22,786 nucleotides of DNA from a virus (taxonomy: Duplodnaviria; Heunggongvirae; Uroviricota; Caudoviricetes), in the IMG/VR virus record IMGVR_UViG_2547132281_000007, positions 1 to 22,786 of that record; one strand, given 5' to 3'. Within the stretch, counting starts at the first letter, position 1. Each line of letters opens with the position of its first letter. Shown here in pieces: positions 4,266-21,545 of the stretch. The notes beneath the pieces were generated by a model. The model saw nothing but the letters and a program-made list of their open reading frames with translations. It was not told the DNA's origin and made no database searches. Position numbers and translations under genes: made by a program.

Positions 4266-4741
4266 GACAGCAGCCCTCCCACCGTTTTACTGATATCGCT
4301 TAAGGCAGACGTTGTCGTATCCTGCAAATTATTCAGCTGCGCACTGAGATCACCGAACATATCGGACAGGGATTCATCCACCCGTTTGAGCGACAGGGTG
4401 AACTCAATCCGGCGCGGCATACCATCGCGGAAAAACTCCGTTTTAGTCTGATTCAGTCCCTCAATCACATACATGCCGTAAATCGTGCCGCTGCCTTCAA
4501 TCAGGGGCCATGCTTTCCCCTGTTCTGCCATCTGCTCCAGTGCCAGCAACGACAGCCTGCCGCCTGTTATTTCCGGCATAAGAACACCGGAAAGCGTCAG
4601 CATGTCGTTTTCCGGTCCCAGAAACTGCGTGGACGGACGTCGGTTTACCCGACTGTTTGCCGCATGTCGCCAGCTGCGTTGATACTGCAGTTCCTGATAC
4701 GGAACGGTGCGCAGCATAAACACGTACAATCCCAGCACCAT
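4262..4741 (-). CDS. P2 gpU-like tail protein
   Basis: 159-aa ORF MVLGLYVFMLRTVPYQELQ...; size and sequence recalled as matching P2 gpU, with translational coupling to D. Confidence 0.88.
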   Translation of the reverse strand: MVLGLYVFMLRTVPYQELQYQRSWRHAANSRVNRRPSTQFLGPENDMLTLSGVLMPEITGGRLSLLALEQMAEQGKAWPLIEGSGTIYGMYVIEGLNQTKTEFFRDGMPRRIEFTLSLKRVDESLSDMFGDLSAQLNNLQDTTTSALSDISKTVGGLLS

Positions 4742-18517: not shown

Positions 18518-18756
18518 TAGTGGATCTCCTGCGCTTCGTTCTGGATTGCTTCAGCAGTTACACGCAATAGTTCTGCTGCTTCGACGTGGTTTAGCTGGCG
18601 GGATGTGATATGACACGCCAGGCTATCAAGGCGAGCTGCCATTGCTTCAGCCCTTGCCCGGCGTTCTTCCAGACGAGTCTCTGTCAGTAAAATATTAAGC
18701 CCAGCATCATCCGGTCCGGTTTTAGTCGTGAGGGTTTCAATATTACGCATAATCAA
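18517..18756 (-). CDS. hypothetical phage early protein
   Basis: 79-aa ORF in operon context, its start overlapping the upstream gene arrangement; no recognisable motif. Confidence 0.45.
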   Translation of the reverse strand: MIMRNIETLTTKTGPDDAGLNILLTETRLEERRARAEAMAARLDSLACHITSRQLNHVEAAELLRVTAEAIQNEAQEIH

Positions 18757-18817
18757 TTCTCCTGAATTTAGATAAAGGGATACCCGGCGGGTTTACGCCA
18801 TTAATTTCATTAGTTGG

Positions 18818-19159
18818 TTAATTCGGCATGGTTAGCCGTCTGGGAAATAAGCTCACCACTGCACGAAAATGATTCATTGCTTTAATCAACTCCCGCTTTT
18901 CGTCAGTGGTCAGCTCATTAATGCTGATGCTATGACGTTCAGCTGGAATTTTTGCCATAAAGAATATAGCAGCCAGTGCCCGTTTATTTTGTTCGTTATT
19001 GATATCCCGTGGATCACGCATATCTTTAATAAACCGCTCAAGCTCTGACTCAATATTCAGGCCAAATACTTTCGCCCTTAACTCCGCAATGTGATTAAGT
19101 CCATTCAGGCGTTCACCGGGGCTTAATGGAACAGTCGCCGCAGCGCTTTCAATAGCCAT
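18818..19159 (-). CDS. hypothetical phage early protein
   Basis: 113-aa ORF on the early-operon strand with a GGGGA-type RBS; no recognisable motif. Confidence 0.4.
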   Translation of the reverse strand: MAIESAAATVPLSPGERLNGLNHIAELRAKVFGLNIESELERFIKDMRDPRDINNEQNKRALAAIFFMAKIPAERHSISINELTTDEKRELIKAMNHFRAVVSLFPRRLTMPN

Positions 19160-19241
19160 TTATGCATCCCCACAACACATCTACTAAAAAATTTTTGATA
19201 TGATCCATTACCAACATATTGATAGCTAGAAGGAATCATCA

Positions 19242-19490
19242 ATGTTGAACCCGGTTGAAAGAGAGCGTATAGAGCAACTTGAAAACGAGATCTCCAGTCT
19301 TCGCGATGAGGTTGCTGTTCAACGAATTCTTGTTTCAGGTCTGATCCACTCCTTATTTCGAACTGACTCAGCAAATCAATCAGCATTTTTTGAGCTCCTC
19401 CGCGAAGAATTAAACAAACTTCCTTTAGGTTCGGTTAAACAACAAGAATTCACTCATCTGATACAGACACTGATAGATCGTTACCGATAA
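19242..19490 (+). CDS. hypothetical small coiled-coil protein (opposite strand inside early region)
   Basis: 82-aa ORF with an AGGAA RBS 8 nt upstream of the ATG and heptad-like sequence (ERERIEQLENEISSLRDEVAVQRIL). The overlapping minus-strand ORF 19123..19386 is low-complexity and less protein-like. Confidence 0.4.
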   Translation: MLNPVERERIEQLENEISSLRDEVAVQRILVSGLIHSLFRTDSANQSAFFELLREELNKLPLGSVKQQEFTHLIQTLIDRYR

Positions 19491-19705
19491 ATATTTCGCC
19501 GATAACGTTCAAGAGGTGATGTCTTTATACGCATCACTTCTTGTACTTTTTCACCACGTATAAAGGTTCCATCCTTTAGCGTGAAAAAGTAGCTACCATC
19601 GCCCGACAACGACGGATAGCAACTGAGCAAATCATCTTCAGGTACTGAATAATTCTCCCCTCTGTAACGAAAGTGATAAACCACTTCATTTTCTGCCGCA
19701 TACAT
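19481..19705 (-). CDS. hypothetical protein
   Basis: 74-aa ORF (MYAAENEVVYHFRYRGENYSVPEDD...) overlapping the 3' part of ORF 19576..19872 in another frame; only one of the two is likely to be real over the shared region. Confidence 0.3.
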   Translation of the reverse strand: MYAAENEVVYHFRYRGENYSVPEDDLLSCYPSLSGDGSYFFTLKDGTFIRGEKVQEVMRIKTSPLERYRRNIYR

Positions 19706-19872
19706 TTGGACTTTCTCCGTTTCCTCGTGGTCAATTCAGACAGCAATTCATCTTGTGAACGGCACGGATGCCAGCGTTTACCATCCTCACCCATGATCCA
19801 GCCGTGACCGTAGTGCATTGCCGGGCTTTGTTTTACCAGCAGCGATGCAAATGATGGTTCTTTCGTCAGCAT
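19576..19872 (-). CDS. hypothetical early protein downstream of cII (186 fil/dhr position)
   Basis: Internal ATG at 19872 just downstream of the cII stop (MLTKEPSFASLLVK...). The C-terminal third looks low-complexity, so a frameshift or the overlapping ORF may be the true reading. Confidence 0.3.
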   Translation of the reverse strand: MLTKEPSFASLLVKQSPAMHYGHGWIMGEDGKRWHPCRSQDELLSELTTRKRRKSKCMRQKMKWFITFVTEGRIIQYLKMICSVAIRRCRAMVATFSR

Positions 19873-19879
19873 AAGCACC

Positions 19880-20395
19880 TCACAGCAAACCGAATGAAGC
19901 ACCGAGGCCAGTCACGGTATCAACCGCACTCGCCATCGCAGGATTAGCCTGTAAACGGGCCTGCAATGAAACAGCAGCCAGCGCCATCAGTCGTGTAACA
20001 GAGTTAATGCTGCTGATCGCATCACGACGGCCTGCACTGGTTTTTACATCGCCAGAAACCGCACCTGCCGCGACACGCCCTATCTCTGCAGTTGCACTCA
20101 TGACGTAATGTGGCAGTTTCTCTTTTGCCACCTCATTAATCGGTACACATGGCAGACAATGAATCTGTGCCAGAAAACCATCTACCAGCGTTGAATCTTC
20201 AGTCAGATCGGTAAGCAGCCAGATTTCTGGTGCGGTTAATAGATGAGGCTGAGCTGGGTTCAGCTTGTTCCGCAGAATCTGCACATTCATGCCTGCACGT
20301 TCTGCCAGTTGCACCAGATTGTGGCGCAGTGCAAATGCACGACAGGCTTCATCAAAATGTGGATGTTTGGAAACTTGGTAATCAAACATGGTCAA
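19880..20395 (-). CDS. cII: CII-like lysogeny establishment protein (phage 186 type)
   Basis: 171-aa ORF; [24 protein letters not shown]...[17 protein letters not shown]...[22 protein letters not shown] recalled as near-identical to phage 186 CII. The true start may be the third codon. Confidence 0.85.
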
Positions 20396-20421
20396 TGCCT
20401 CTGATGTATTTCAGAATCGAA

Positions 20422-20643
20422 CTAACTAAGGTTTAGATTGCATTCTGAAAGCGCATCAACGGTCATGGCTGCTATGTTGATCATCACTTTTTCGCGTTTT
20501 TTATCTTTGCGCAAACGGTGACGGATAAGGCGTCCGTCAGCCAACATGTCATTGATGGTATCGATGGACAGCCCTGTCAGCTCGCTATAGCGCTCAATAG
20601 TCACATGAGGCGTGGTAAGAGTGATTGAAATGTTAGGTCTCAT
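20422..20643 (-). CDS. Apl/Cox-like excisionase and transcriptional regulator
   Basis: 73-aa basic ORF with an HTH-like segment, first gene of the early operon and divergent from the repressor, as apl in 186 or cox in P2. Confidence 0.65.
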
Positions 20644-20688
20644 GATGCAACATTCCTCGTTTAATGATGATTAATCAGGACGAATACG

Positions 20689-20726
20689 GATCGTTTGTAT
20701 TTTGTGAACACCATAAACATACGATC
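20689..20726. promoter_or_regulatory. candidate repressor operator in the lysis/lysogeny switch region
   Basis: Imperfect inverted repeat GATCGTTTGTAT ... ATAAACATACGATC centred near 20708, in the 119-bp region between the divergent apl and cI genes. Confidence 0.35.
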
Positions 20727-20768
20727 GCACAATGAAATCGTCAAGATAAAAGTTCACTTGGAGTGACC

Positions 20769-21338
20769 ATGAATTTGGAGAAAGGCGGACGAGGCGCTAT
20801 AGAGCGCATGGTAGAAGCTTATGGATTCAAAACTCGACAGGCGTTGTGCGATCATTTAGGAATCTCTAAAAGTACACTCGCCACACGCTACATGCGTGAC
20901 TCATTCCCAGCAGAATGGGTAATCCAGTGCGCCCTTGAAACGGGCACCTCGCTTAATTGGCTCACAACCGGACATGGTTCAAAGCAAACTTCAGGTAATA
21001 CAAATACTATGGAAGTTGCTAAATATGTATTATCTGATGGTGCCTTGCGTGAAGACGGTTTTTATATTTTTGATAAGGGATTTCTACCCTCTACGTTTAA
21101 AAAACCTTTTGTCATCACAGATAACAATTCTGAATTTATTTGTGATAAAGAATTTGATGATATACGTGATGGTAAATGGGTAATAAGTATTGATGGCGAA
21201 GTAACGATCCGTGACATTACTCGTTTACCCGGTGGAAGAATCTTCGTCGAGGGTGGAAACAGAGCCTTCGAATGTAAGATAGAAGACATTGAAATAATTG
21301 GTAAAATTATAAGTTTAACAGTCAAGTATGTTAAATAG
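20769..21338 (+). CDS. cI: CI immunity repressor (phage 186 type)
   Basis: About 190 aa; ...VEAYGFKTRQALCDHLGISKSTLATRYMRD...CALETGTSLNWLTTGHG... has an N-terminal HTH and a 186 CI-like C-terminal domain (186 CI recalled as 192 aa). ATG at 20769 has a GGAG RBS; an in-frame GTG at 20763 is the alternative start. Confidence 0.85.
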   Translation: MNLEKGGRGAIERMVEAYGFKTRQALCDHLGISKSTLATRYMRDSFPAEWVIQCALETGTSLNWLTTGHGSKQTSGNTNTMEVAKYVLSDGALREDGFYIFDKGFLPSTFKKPFVITDNNSEFICDKEFDDIRDGKWVISIDGEVTIRDITRLPGGRIFVEGGNRAFECKIEDIEIIGKIISLTVKYVK

Positions 21339-21353
21339 TACCGGGAGGAAACT

Positions 21354-21545
21354 ATGCTTGGTAAGGTATTTTTTGTGGTTTTGTCATGTTCTTTGTTATT
21401 AAACCCACTAACTACCTATGCTAGAAATTATCCCTGCTCAGGGAAAAAGGGAGGTGTTTCTCACTGTACCTCAGATGGCAAATTCGTTTGCAATGATGGA
21501 ACTATTAGTAAATCCAAAAAAATCTGTACTAAAAACTCACGATAA
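21354..21545 (+). CDS. small secreted cysteine-rich protein (moron between cI and int)
   Basis: 63-aa ORF with a strong GGGAGG RBS, a predicted signal peptide ([23 protein letters not shown]) and a 40-aa mature region with 4 Cys and many Lys; AT-rich. Confidence 0.45.

What the first reader, a model, noticed from the sequence alone, without database searches (positions are those of the whole stretch)
19123..19902. Early region downstream of cII has conflicting overlapping ORFs and a likely opposite-strand gene
Between cII and the next clear early gene, the minus strand has two overlapping ORFs in different frames (19576..19872 and 19481..19705), and the plus strand has a well-formed 82-aa coiled-coil ORF with an RBS (19242..19490) that converges on them. 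This may be a frameshifted fil/dhr-like gene, or a small convergent pair such as an antisense-regulated toxin-antitoxin-like module embedded in the early operon.
Basis: seen in the sequence. Interest (0 to 1): 0.4.

Follow-up and report, generated by a model that had tools for sequence, protein, structure and literature searches.

The report
Conserved convergent small-gene pair beside fil
The "conflicting ORFs" after cII in this 186/Fels-2-type E. coli prophage are three real small genes: the cell-division inhibitor fil with a meaningless read-through tail, an unannotated 74-residue early gene overlapping that tail, and an 82-residue gene on the opposite strand that always sits tail-to-tail with the 74-residue gene; what the pair does is unknown.

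Summary
The window is a 186/Fels-2-type (Peduoviridae) prophage, 100% identical over the tested 1.8 kb to E. coli LR-33.

Substitution patterns against relatives about 70% identical support three genes:
- the fil core (19717-19872, minus strand)
- a 74-aa gene (19481-19705, minus strand)
- an 82-aa gene (19242-19490, plus strand)

The fil tail (19576-19716) and the 87-aa ORF (19123-19386, minus strand) show no coding signal. Nothing is frameshifted. Fil's conserved core is intact, and its C-terminal tail differs in every phage compared.

Relative to compact relatives, a 546-bp cassette sits start codon to start codon between fil and the DUF5347 gene. In all 11 diverged lineages that carry an 82-aa homologue (23-71% identity), a 74-aa homologue lies tail-to-tail with it (stop-to-stop -35 to +8 nt). 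This holds whether the pair follows fil, precedes fil or replaces it. The 74-aa gene often occurs alone.

Neither protein matches Pfam, NCBIfam, PADLOC or PDB. The models are a three-helix protein and a small beta-barrel.

My best mechanistic guess, which is inferred: an early host-directed effector plus a prophage-expressed convergent modulator acting through its protein, antisense RNA or both. A toxin-antitoxin identity is not shown.

The parts
19880..20389 (-). cII (CP76 family), the upstream neighbour that anchors the operon
   Evidence: PF06892 at 144 bits. PGAP calls it 'phage regulatory CII family protein' in the identical E. coli LR-33 locus.
19717..19872 (-). Conserved core of fil (cell-division inhibitor family), codons 1-52. 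The ATG lies 8 nt after the cII stop, as in phage 186.
   Evidence: PF10893 at 80.4 bits, aa 5-53 against HMM positions 1-49 of 56. dN/dS about 0.1 against L005 and L006. Aligns with Fil of phage 186 and of a Klebsiella phage. PGAP marks exactly this stretch as 'Fil, missing C-terminus'.
19576..19716 (-). Read-through tail of the fil ORF (46 codons). It overlaps the 74-aa gene by 130 nt in another frame and is not under selection as protein.
   Evidence: pN>=pS and no third-position excess. Fil tails differ completely between 186 (75 aa), the Klebsiella phage (66 aa) and the window (98 aa). The ORF is 112 aa in L005 and is stopped at codon 15 in L006.
19481..19705 (-). 74-aa early gene (phrog_4312), not annotated by PGAP. 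GGAG lies 9 nt before its ATG, inside fil. The model is a small 5-stranded beta-barrel plus a C-terminal helix.
   Evidence: Purifying selection: pN 0.18-0.26 against pS 0.6-0.8. 53 homologue clusters in Enterobacterales. AF2 pLDDT 85. phrog_4312 at E=4e-47. No feature in the RefSeq annotation.
19242..19490 (+). 82-aa opposite-strand gene (phrog_26925; WP_000934004.1). The protein is acidic and modelled as three helices.
   Evidence: Purifying selection: 50 of 80 differences at third positions, p=9e-8. A family of about 15 clusters at 50% identity, each 79-86 aa. AF2 gives three helices at pLDDT 78. pI 5.3.
19196..19204 (+). Predicted extended -10 promoter element TGATATGAT for the 82-aa gene. 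This is inferred, not shown.
   Evidence: TGnTAT(G/C)AT lies 44-46 nt before the ATG in the window, L005 and L006, which are about 70% identical in DNA. It is not found in the more distant lineages, and the generic -35/-10 scan did not report it.
19228..19234 (+). Shine-Dalgarno-like AGAAGGA of the 82-aa gene
   Evidence: Read from the sequence. G-rich purine runs sit at the same place in L005 and L006.
19510..19553 (+). Predicted intrinsic terminator of the plus-strand transcript (13-bp stem, then TACTTTTTCA). It lies inside the 3' coding part of the 74-aa gene.
   Evidence: It is the only terminator-like site in 18700-20800. RNA folding gives -20.5 kcal/mol on the plus strand against -14.5 on the minus strand, because of a G.U pair. 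The hairpin is kept in L005 and L006 and is weaker in 813R9, which lacks the plus gene.
19160..19705 (.). 546-bp cassette absent from compact relatives. It runs from the start codon of the 74-aa gene to the start codon of the DUF5347 gene, and both junctions read AAATG.
   Evidence: Alignment A1 against Klebsiella phage ST437-OXA245phi4.2 and phage 813R9. Identity to 813R9 is >=90% down to about 19571 and then about 63%, so one breakpoint lies inside the 74-aa gene.
19123..19386 (-). 87-aa ORF, not a gene. It is antisense to the 82-aa gene and ends in the former fil stop.
   Evidence: dN/dS about 1 with no third-position excess. Its last residues, KWLLKALRRLFH, are the C-terminus of the compact Klebsiella-phage Fil read over the DUF5347 start.
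18818..19159 (-). DUF5347 gene, the downstream neighbour. The early transcript must cross the plus gene in antisense to reach it and the replication genes.
   Evidence: PF17282 at 114 bits. Annotation and gene order.

Best explanation
Anatomy (shown by the sequence comparisons). This is a variable accessory slot in the pR early lytic operon of a 186/Fels-2-type prophage.
- fil follows cII and its conserved 50-residue core is intact. Its C-terminal tail is whatever the ribosome reads until the next stop, here 46 unconstrained codons.
- A separate 74-aa gene starts inside fil in another frame. It is a genuine early gene that genome annotation misses.
- An 82-aa gene is encoded on the opposite strand, in the same direction as cI and int. 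Its 3' end overlaps the 3' end of the 74-aa gene by 10 nt.
- The two genes form a conserved tail-to-tail cassette that has moved between different positions of the early operon in Enterobacterales P2-like prophages. The 82-aa gene is never seen without the 74-aa gene, while the 74-aa gene is often alone.

Mechanism (inferred).
- The 74-aa beta-barrel protein is a pR-driven early protein. It sits in the slot where phage 186 keeps its host-directed genes fil and dhr, so I read it as host-directed too.
- The 82-aa gene is probably transcribed from its own extended -10 promoter while pR is repressed in the lysogen. Because there is no intergenic space, its transcript must end inside the 74-aa gene.
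- It would then modulate its partner and the downstream replication genes in two possible ways: by convergent transcription or antisense pairing (as lambda OOP RNA does to cII mRNA), by its acidic helical protein binding the 74-aa protein, or both.
For: - Identity of the element: 100% identical over the tested 1.8 kb to E. coli LR-33 and related to Peduoviridae phages, with the gene order of phage 186.
- Coding status of each frame.
- Fil core intact and tails variable. A 98-aa Fil variant is common enough to have its own PHROG family, phrog_32377.
- Nested insertions relative to 813R9 and the Klebsiella phage.
- Pair conserved in 11 of 11 lineages at 23-71% identity, with stop-to-stop spacing of -35 to +8 nt. 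The pair lies after fil in the window, L005, L006 and L034. It lies directly after cII with no fil called in L024, L028 and L039. It lies between cII and fil in L030 and L038, and upstream of fil in the short contig L037. The downstream neighbours also differ.
- Pairwise identities of the two families correlate, r=0.80.
- The 74-aa gene occurs alone in 813R9, Edwardsiella and Pantoea.
- E. coli genome counts are 585 with the 74-aa gene against 64 with the 82-aa gene.
- Promoter-like and terminator-like elements.
- Both proteins are soluble, and the 82-aa protein is acidic in 7 of the 8 lineages computed.
Against: - There are no expression data of any kind, so plus-strand transcription in lysogens is inferred.
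- The extended -10 motif and the hairpin are conserved only in the three closest lineages. A weaker hairpin exists in 813R9, which has no plus gene.
- No homology or fold match points to a function for either protein.
- The linkage could reflect physical hitch-hiking, because the genes abut. The correlation of identities uses non-independent pairs.
- The 74-aa gene does well without the 82-aa gene in about 90% of the E. coli prophages that carry it. Any antidote role is therefore dispensable.
Confidence: 0.6

Rival explanations
1. The 82-aa gene is an independent moron, such as a lysogenic-conversion, exclusion or anti-defence factor expressed from the prophage. It has no functional tie to the 74-aa gene, and the constant adjacency only reflects one ancient insertion next to that gene plus joint inheritance.
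For: The gene is rare (64 of 5426 E. coli genomes; no match in 50,697 GenBank phage records). It faces the lysogenic direction and seems to have its own promoter-like and terminator-like signals. The region between integrase and primase is a known minor hotspot for accessory and defence genes in P2-like phages (PMC13586616). The 74-aa gene functions without it.
Against: The pair has kept its tail-to-tail geometry through divergence down to 23-30% identity and through relocation to at least three different slots with different flanks. Simple hitch-hiking from a single insertion does not predict this. There is no PADLOC hit.
Confidence: 0.25
2. A true toxin-antitoxin module. The 74-aa protein is a toxin, and the 82-aa gene supplies the antitoxin, either as a type II-like protein or as a type I-like cis-antisense RNA. 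The module would stabilise the prophage or cause abortive infection.
For: A conserved two-gene unit of small proteins, one of them acidic and helical, with obligatory 3' antisense overlap. 3'-overlapping convergent type I systems such as txpA/RatA are a precedent (my own knowledge).
Against: The putative toxin is frequent without the putative antitoxin. It is soluble and has no membrane segment. There is no toxin or antitoxin domain in Pfam, NCBIfam or PADLOC. The genes are convergent rather than an autoregulated operon. The plus gene is clearly protein-coding, not a non-coding antitoxin RNA.
Confidence: 0.12
3. A frameshifted, decaying fil or fil-dhr gene. The two minus-strand ORFs would be the halves of one broken gene, and the plus ORF would be a chance ORF on the other strand.
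For: PGAP labels fil here as a pseudogene 'missing C-terminus'. Frame-fusion variants exist in assemblies (P0029, 129 aa).
Against: The 74-aa frame has its own ATG and RBS, is conserved as an independent gene where fil is absent (L024, L028) or lies downstream of it (L030, L033), and is under purifying selection. The Fil core matches the family model through position 49 of 56, and tails vary among functional phages including 186. The plus ORF is under strong purifying selection. There is no similarity to Dhr.
Confidence: 0.03

Closest known systems
Phage 186 fil (cell-division inhibitor; Pfam PF10893 Phage_186_Fil)
   Same: Same position 8 nt after cII. The conserved N-terminal 50 residues are present (MLxxEPSFASLLVKQSPxMHYGHGWIxGxDGKRWHPCRSQxELL). 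Its 3' end overlaps the start of the next gene.
   Different: The tail is 46 codons long and overlaps the next gene by 130 nt, against 14 nt in 186 and 37 nt in the Klebsiella phage. The tail sequence is unrelated to other Fil tails and is unconstrained.
Phage 186 dhr (depresses host DNA replication)
   Same: The 74-aa gene occupies the slot directly after fil, starts inside fil, and is similar in size (66 against 74 aa).
   Different: No detectable sequence relationship: BLASTP finds nothing and hhalign gives a probability of 0.5%. They fall in different PHROG families, 6069 against 4312.
Lambda OOP antisense RNA acting on cII mRNA (convergent short transcript ending inside the 3' end of an early gene; my own knowledge)
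   Same: A convergent transcription unit placed just downstream of an early-operon gene, with its predicted terminator inside that gene's 3' coding region.
   Different: Here the convergent transcript encodes a conserved 82-aa protein. Nothing is known about RNase III cleavage or any regulatory effect.
Type I toxin-antitoxin pairs with 3'-overlapping convergent genes (for example txpA/RatA, bsrG/SR4; my own knowledge)
   Same: Tail-to-tail arrangement of small genes with overlapping 3' ends, carried on prophage-like elements.
   Different: The 74-aa protein is soluble and not a membrane peptide. The partner is protein-coding. The 'toxin' is often found alone.
PHROG families phrog_4312, phrog_26925 and phrog_32377
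   Same: Full-length matches at E=4e-47, 2e-57 and 2e-65, so all three ORFs were already catalogued from phage and prophage genomes.
   Different: The first two are 'unknown function'. The library says nothing about their pairing.

Membership tests
Phage_186_Fil (PF10893) | Sequence match to the family model above the curated threshold | tested here: met
   80.4 bits against a cut-off of 25; aa 5-53 against model positions 1-49 of 56
Phage_186_Fil (PF10893) | Gene immediately downstream of cII in the pR early operon | tested here: met
   The ATG at 19872 lies 8 nt after the cII stop at 19880, the same spacing as in 186
Phage_186_Fil (PF10893) | Complete C-terminal end of the family model | tested here: not met
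   Model positions 50-56 are unmatched and PGAP flags 'missing C-terminus'. However, the tails of 186 Fil and the Klebsiella-phage Fil are also unrelated to each other, so this feature is weakly defining.
Phage_186_Fil (PF10893) | Blocks cell division when overexpressed | not testable with these tools
   Known for 186 fil from the record annotation. It needs an experiment here.
Phage 186 Dhr | Sequence or profile similarity to Dhr | tested here: not met
   BLASTP finds no alignment. hhalign probability is 0.5%. They belong to different PHROG families.
Phage 186 Dhr | Small gene overlapping the 3' end of fil | tested here: met
   19481-19705 starts inside the fil ORF. In 186, dhr overlaps fil by 14 nt.
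Type II toxin-antitoxin module | Known toxin or antitoxin domains | tested here: not met
   No Pfam, NCBIfam or PADLOC family reached a curated threshold for either protein; the only listed hits were weak and far below cut-off
Type II toxin-antitoxin module | Co-directional, co-transcribed gene pair | tested here: not met
   The genes are convergent in all 11 lineages
Type II toxin-antitoxin module | Toxin not maintained without its antitoxin | tested here: not met
   The 74-aa gene is alone in 813R9, Edwardsiella and Pantoea, and in about 90% of the E. coli genomes that carry it
Type I (cis-antisense) toxin-antitoxin module | Small hydrophobic membrane toxin | tested here: not met
   GRAVY is -0.7 and the model is a beta-barrel with no hydrophobic helix
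Type I (cis-antisense) toxin-antitoxin module | Non-coding antisense RNA partner | tested here: not met
   The partner is protein-coding under purifying selection
Type I (cis-antisense) toxin-antitoxin module | Overlapping convergent transcripts | tested here: inconclusive
   The coding regions overlap or abut (-35 to +8 nt), so transcripts must overlap if both are made. A terminator is predicted inside the partner gene. There are no transcript data.
Known anti-phage defence systems (PADLOC-DB 2.0) | Match to any defence-protein model | tested here: not met
   0 families for all the proteins tested
PHROG phrog_26925 / phrog_4312 | Full-length profile match | tested here: met
   E=1.6e-57 over 1-82 of 82 and E=4e-47 over 1-74 of 74

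The most novel reading that the evidence does not exclude
The 74-aa/82-aa cassette is a previously undescribed two-component module of temperate P2/186-like phages. It would consist of an early effector aimed at the host or at competing phages, and an inhibitor made by the resident prophage. The inhibitor's gene would face the effector gene, so that both its protein and its transcript restrain the effector and the downstream replication genes. In effect this would be a hybrid protein-plus-antisense 'immunity to one's own early gene', influencing prophage stability or cross-protection against related superinfecting phages.
Probability: 0.2. Interest if true: 0.6.

Novelty: new variant of a known kind. 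Interest (0 to 1): 0.36.

Why it matters
- Annotation. A small gene under clear purifying selection (74 aa, present in about 585 of 5426 complete E. coli genomes) was left unannotated in nearly all RefSeq records checked, because annotation pipelines prefer the longer read-through ORF of fil. Here fil itself is called a pseudogene although its conserved core is intact. Correcting this changes the gene inventory of a very common prophage family.
- Biology. A small convergent gene pair has stayed together through deep divergence and several relocations inside the lysis-lysogeny control region. That makes it a cheap, testable candidate for a new regulatory or effector/inhibitor module in the well-studied 186/P2 switch system.
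- If the pair turns out to be two unrelated accessory genes, the finding is ordinary phage mosaicism.

Tried and rejected
- Frameshift or pseudogene reading: rejected by per-frame substitution analysis and by loci where the 74-aa gene exists without fil.
- The 87-aa minus ORF as a gene: rejected (dN/dS about 1). It is the antisense of the 82-aa gene running into the old fil stop.
- Dhr homology of the 74-aa protein: a shared 'K.DG..R'-like motif seen by eye did not hold up.
- Function by homology: Pfam, NCBIfam, PADLOC and a PDB sequence search gave nothing significant. PHROGs returned only 'unknown function' families.
- Known RNA families: none.
- CI-operator sharing between the plus gene's upstream region and the pR/pL region: none, only one chance 8-mer. 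No LexA-box spacing was seen by eye.
- A scan of one genome per species for the 82-aa family found nothing.
- Literature: no paper mentions the proteins or the pair.
- The generic -35/-10 scan found no promoter for the plus gene. The extended -10 proposal rests on my own motif comparison.
Full report
**What the window is.** The tested 1.8 kb of the window (18700-20500) is 100% identical to a prophage in the E. coli LR-33 chromosome. About 1,324 of 5,426 complete E. coli genomes carry related sequence, and it is related to Peduoviridae phages of Escherichia, Klebsiella and Salmonella. The gene order matches the phage 186 switch and early region:
- plus strand: int and cI
- minus strand: apl/cox, cII, fil, then the genes for DUF5347, DUF2732, a TraR/DksA zinc finger, Dam methylase and the gpA replication protein

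The finding lies between cII and the DUF5347 gene.

**Check of the observation.**
- minus 19576..19872 (98 aa from the ATG)
- minus 19481..19705 (74 aa, a different frame, overlapping the first by 130 nt)
- plus 19242..19490 (82 aa, preceded by AGAAGGA; its last 10 nt overlap the end of the 74-aa ORF)
- minus 19123..19386 (87 aa)

**Which frames are real.** I aligned the interval with two relatives about 70% identical in DNA and counted substitutions per frame. The relatives were L005 (Lelliottia amnigena CP077331) and L006 (a metagenomic contig whose 82-aa protein is also on record from Klebsiella).

| Stretch | Third-position differences (window vs L005) | Other measures | Verdict |
|---|---|---|---|
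| 82-aa plus frame | 50 of 80, p=9e-8 | pN about 0.18, pS 0.7-0.8 | coding |
| 74-aa frame | 38 of 75 (40 of 70 for L005 vs L006; p=1e-3 to 4e-5) | pN 0.18-0.26, pS 0.6-0.8 | coding |
| fil core, codons 1-51 | 23 of 33, p=2e-5 | dN/dS about 0.1 | coding |
| fil tail over the 74-aa gene | no excess | pN>=pS | not constrained |
| 87-aa ORF | no excess | dN/dS about 1 | not a gene |

So there are three genes, one unconstrained tail and one artefactual ORF.

**fil is not frameshifted.** The 98-aa ORF matches Pfam Phage_186_Fil at 80 bits over model positions 1-49 of 56. Comparing Fil of 186 (75 aa), of Klebsiella phage ST437-OXA245phi4.2 (66 aa) and of the window (98 aa) shows that only the first 47 or so residues are conserved. 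After '...RSQxELL' the three tails are unrelated. Each is simply the alternative-frame reading of whatever gene follows.

The ORF is 98 aa in phage 813R9, 112 aa in L005, and cut by a TAA at codon 15 in L006. PGAP's label 'pseudogene, missing C-terminus' in LR-33 therefore probably undersells the gene. The same 98-aa form is annotated as an intact Fil in many other genomes and has its own PHROG family, phrog_32377.

**How the region was built.** Alignment with compact relatives shows nested additions:
- In the Klebsiella phage, fil overlaps the DUF5347 start directly.
- Phage 813R9 has an extra 240 bp or so, which is the 74-aa gene.
- The window has a further 300 bp or so, which is the 82-aa gene.

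Relative to the compact form, the window carries 546 bp (19160-19705). This runs from the ATG of the 74-aa gene to the ATG of DUF5347, and both junctions read AAATG. Identity to 813R9 is >=90% from 19900 down to about 19571 and then falls to about 63%. The exchangeable unit in E. coli is therefore the 3' third of the 74-aa gene plus the 82-aa gene and its upstream region. The C-terminal residues of the artefactual 87-aa ORF (KWLLKALRRLFH) are the old Fil C-terminus read across the DUF5347 start.

**The two small proteins.** Neither protein reaches any curated threshold in Pfam, NCBIfam or PADLOC, and neither has a significant PDB sequence match. Both are soluble, and the 82-aa protein is acidic in most lineages.
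- **82-aa protein.** It belongs to a small family: 4 clusters by word-indexed search and about 15 representatives of 79-86 aa by exhaustive HMMER. It matches phrog_26925 (unknown function). It is present in only 64 E. coli genomes and 12 IMG/VR contigs, and in none of 50,697 GenBank phage records by tblastn. AlphaFold gives three helices (4-40, 43-58, 63-81; pLDDT 78) with no significant PDB neighbour.

**The key comparative result.** I examined the context of 82-aa homologues in 11 lineages, at 23-71% identity: the window, L005, L006, L034, L036, L024, L028, L030, L037, L038 and L039. In every one, a 74-aa-family gene lies immediately tail-to-tail, with stop-to-stop spacing from -35 to +8 nt.

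The position of the pair varies:
- after fil (window, L005, L006, L034)
- directly after cII with no fil called between (L024, L028, L039)
- between cII and fil (L030, L038), and upstream of fil in the short contig L037

The downstream neighbour varies too: DUF5347, or unrelated genes of 212, 108 or 126 aa. Pairwise identities of the two families co-vary (r=0.80 over 28 pairs, which are not independent).

The reverse does not hold. The 74-aa gene is alone in 813R9, Edwardsiella and Pantoea and in about nine-tenths of the E. coli prophages that carry it. The dependence is therefore one-way: the 82-aa gene goes with the 74-aa gene, but the 74-aa gene does not need the 82-aa gene.

**Signals.**
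- A motif TGnTAT(G/C)AT, which looks like an extended -10 element, lies 44-46 nt before the ATG of the 82-aa gene in the window (19196-19204), L005 and L006. I did not find it in the distant lineages.
- The only terminator-like site in 18700-20800 is on the plus strand at 19510-19543, followed by TACTTTTTCA, inside the 74-aa coding region.
- That hairpin is kept in L005 and L006. In the window and L006 it is 4-6 kcal/mol more stable on the plus strand because of G.U pairs. It is weaker in 813R9.
- No operator-like words are shared with the pR/pL region, and there is no Rfam match.
- These signals are suggestive only. What is firm is the geometry. With essentially no space between the stop codons, any plus-strand transcript must end inside the 74-aa gene, and the pR transcript must cross the 82-aa gene in antisense to reach DUF5347 and the replication genes.

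**How it most likely works.**
- *Shown:* three genes, one accessory cassette, and a conserved convergent pair with one-way dependence.
- *Inferred:* the 74-aa protein is a pR-driven early protein in the slot where 186 keeps its host-directed genes fil and dhr. The 82-aa gene faces the lysogenic direction and is probably expressed while pR is repressed. It would act on its partner through its protein, through convergent transcription or antisense pairing (as lambda OOP RNA does on cII mRNA; my own knowledge), or both.
- I put the anatomy at about 0.9, a functional coupling of the pair at about 0.5, and the specific effector/inhibitor mechanism at about 0.25.

**Rivals.**
- An unrelated moron that hitch-hikes with its neighbour (0.25).
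- A strict toxin-antitoxin module (0.12). It fails on domains, orientation, solubility and the frequent solo 'toxin'.
- A broken fil/dhr gene (0.03), which the frame analysis contradicts.

**Comparison with what is known, and novelty.** fil is a member of the Fil family with an unusual long unconstrained tail. The 74-aa gene is Dhr-like in position only. All three ORFs already sit in PHROGs, two of them as 'unknown function'. The region between integrase and primase is a recognised minor accessory hotspot of P2-like phages (PMC13586616). I found no description of the pair or of either protein.

I therefore rate the finding as a new variant of a known kind: small accessory genes with a convergent arrangement in a phage early operon. 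Interest is modest. It rises if the effector/inhibitor reading proves true.

Noticed in passing
window 21354-21545 (+): A 63-aa ORF lies between cI and int. It has an N-terminal signal-peptide-like segment and a cysteine- and lysine-rich mature part ([34 protein letters not shown]...). PGAP calls it hypothetical (WP_000900883.1). In relatives the same cI-int slot holds a 483-aa KAP NTPase (L006-L009), a 493-aa protein (L004/L005) or an AAA_15/AAA_21 ATPase (L028), so it looks like a second variable or defence slot. It has no PADLOC hit.
   Followed up: partly
L006/L007/L008/L009, fil region (L006 about 4590-4631): In this lineage fil carries an in-frame TAA at codon 15 (GTT AAG TAA) and gene callers skip it, while the 74-aa/82-aa pair downstream is intact. 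fil seems dispensable where the pair is kept.
   Followed up: partly
window 19481-19705 and RefSeq E. coli genomes: The 74-aa gene is not annotated in the identical LR-33 record and in nearly all other RefSeq hits, which list 'none' or only 'Fil family protein' under the match. Gene callers on the same DNA disagree: Logan calls the 72-aa gene, while NCBI calls a 112-aa Fil.
   Followed up: yes
proteins P0011-P0020, P0029, P0032, P0008 (relatives of window 19481-19705): Many assembly-derived variants of the 74-aa protein are frame-shifted near an A-run at its 3' end, giving 80-aa forms ending ...IRKMYLLLSVTVRTKNDSCVWGI. Others are fused to Fil, cII or Dam fragments. These may be sequencing or assembly errors at the homopolymer, or real slippage-prone variants.
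   Followed up: no
window 18818-19159 (-): The DUF5347 gene is annotated as 'replication protein GpB' in phage vB_EcoM-813R9 but as a DUF5347 or hypothetical protein elsewhere. The GpB label was not supported by anything I ran; Pfam gives only DUF5347.
   Followed up: no
window 19206-19235 (+) and the equivalent stretches of L005 and L006: Two direct copies of YTGRTA (TTGATA...TTGATA in the window) lie about 24 nt apart upstream of the 82-aa gene, in all three close lineages. The first overlaps the proposed extended -10 element. The role of the second is unexplained; it could be an operator or a 5'-UTR element.
   Followed up: no
NZ_CM135829.1 (hit H54): A record labelled 'Escherichia coli strain DH5alpha' carries the 82-aa gene at 99.6% identity. 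This is unexpected for a K-12 derivative and suggests a mislabelled strain or assembly.
   Followed up: no
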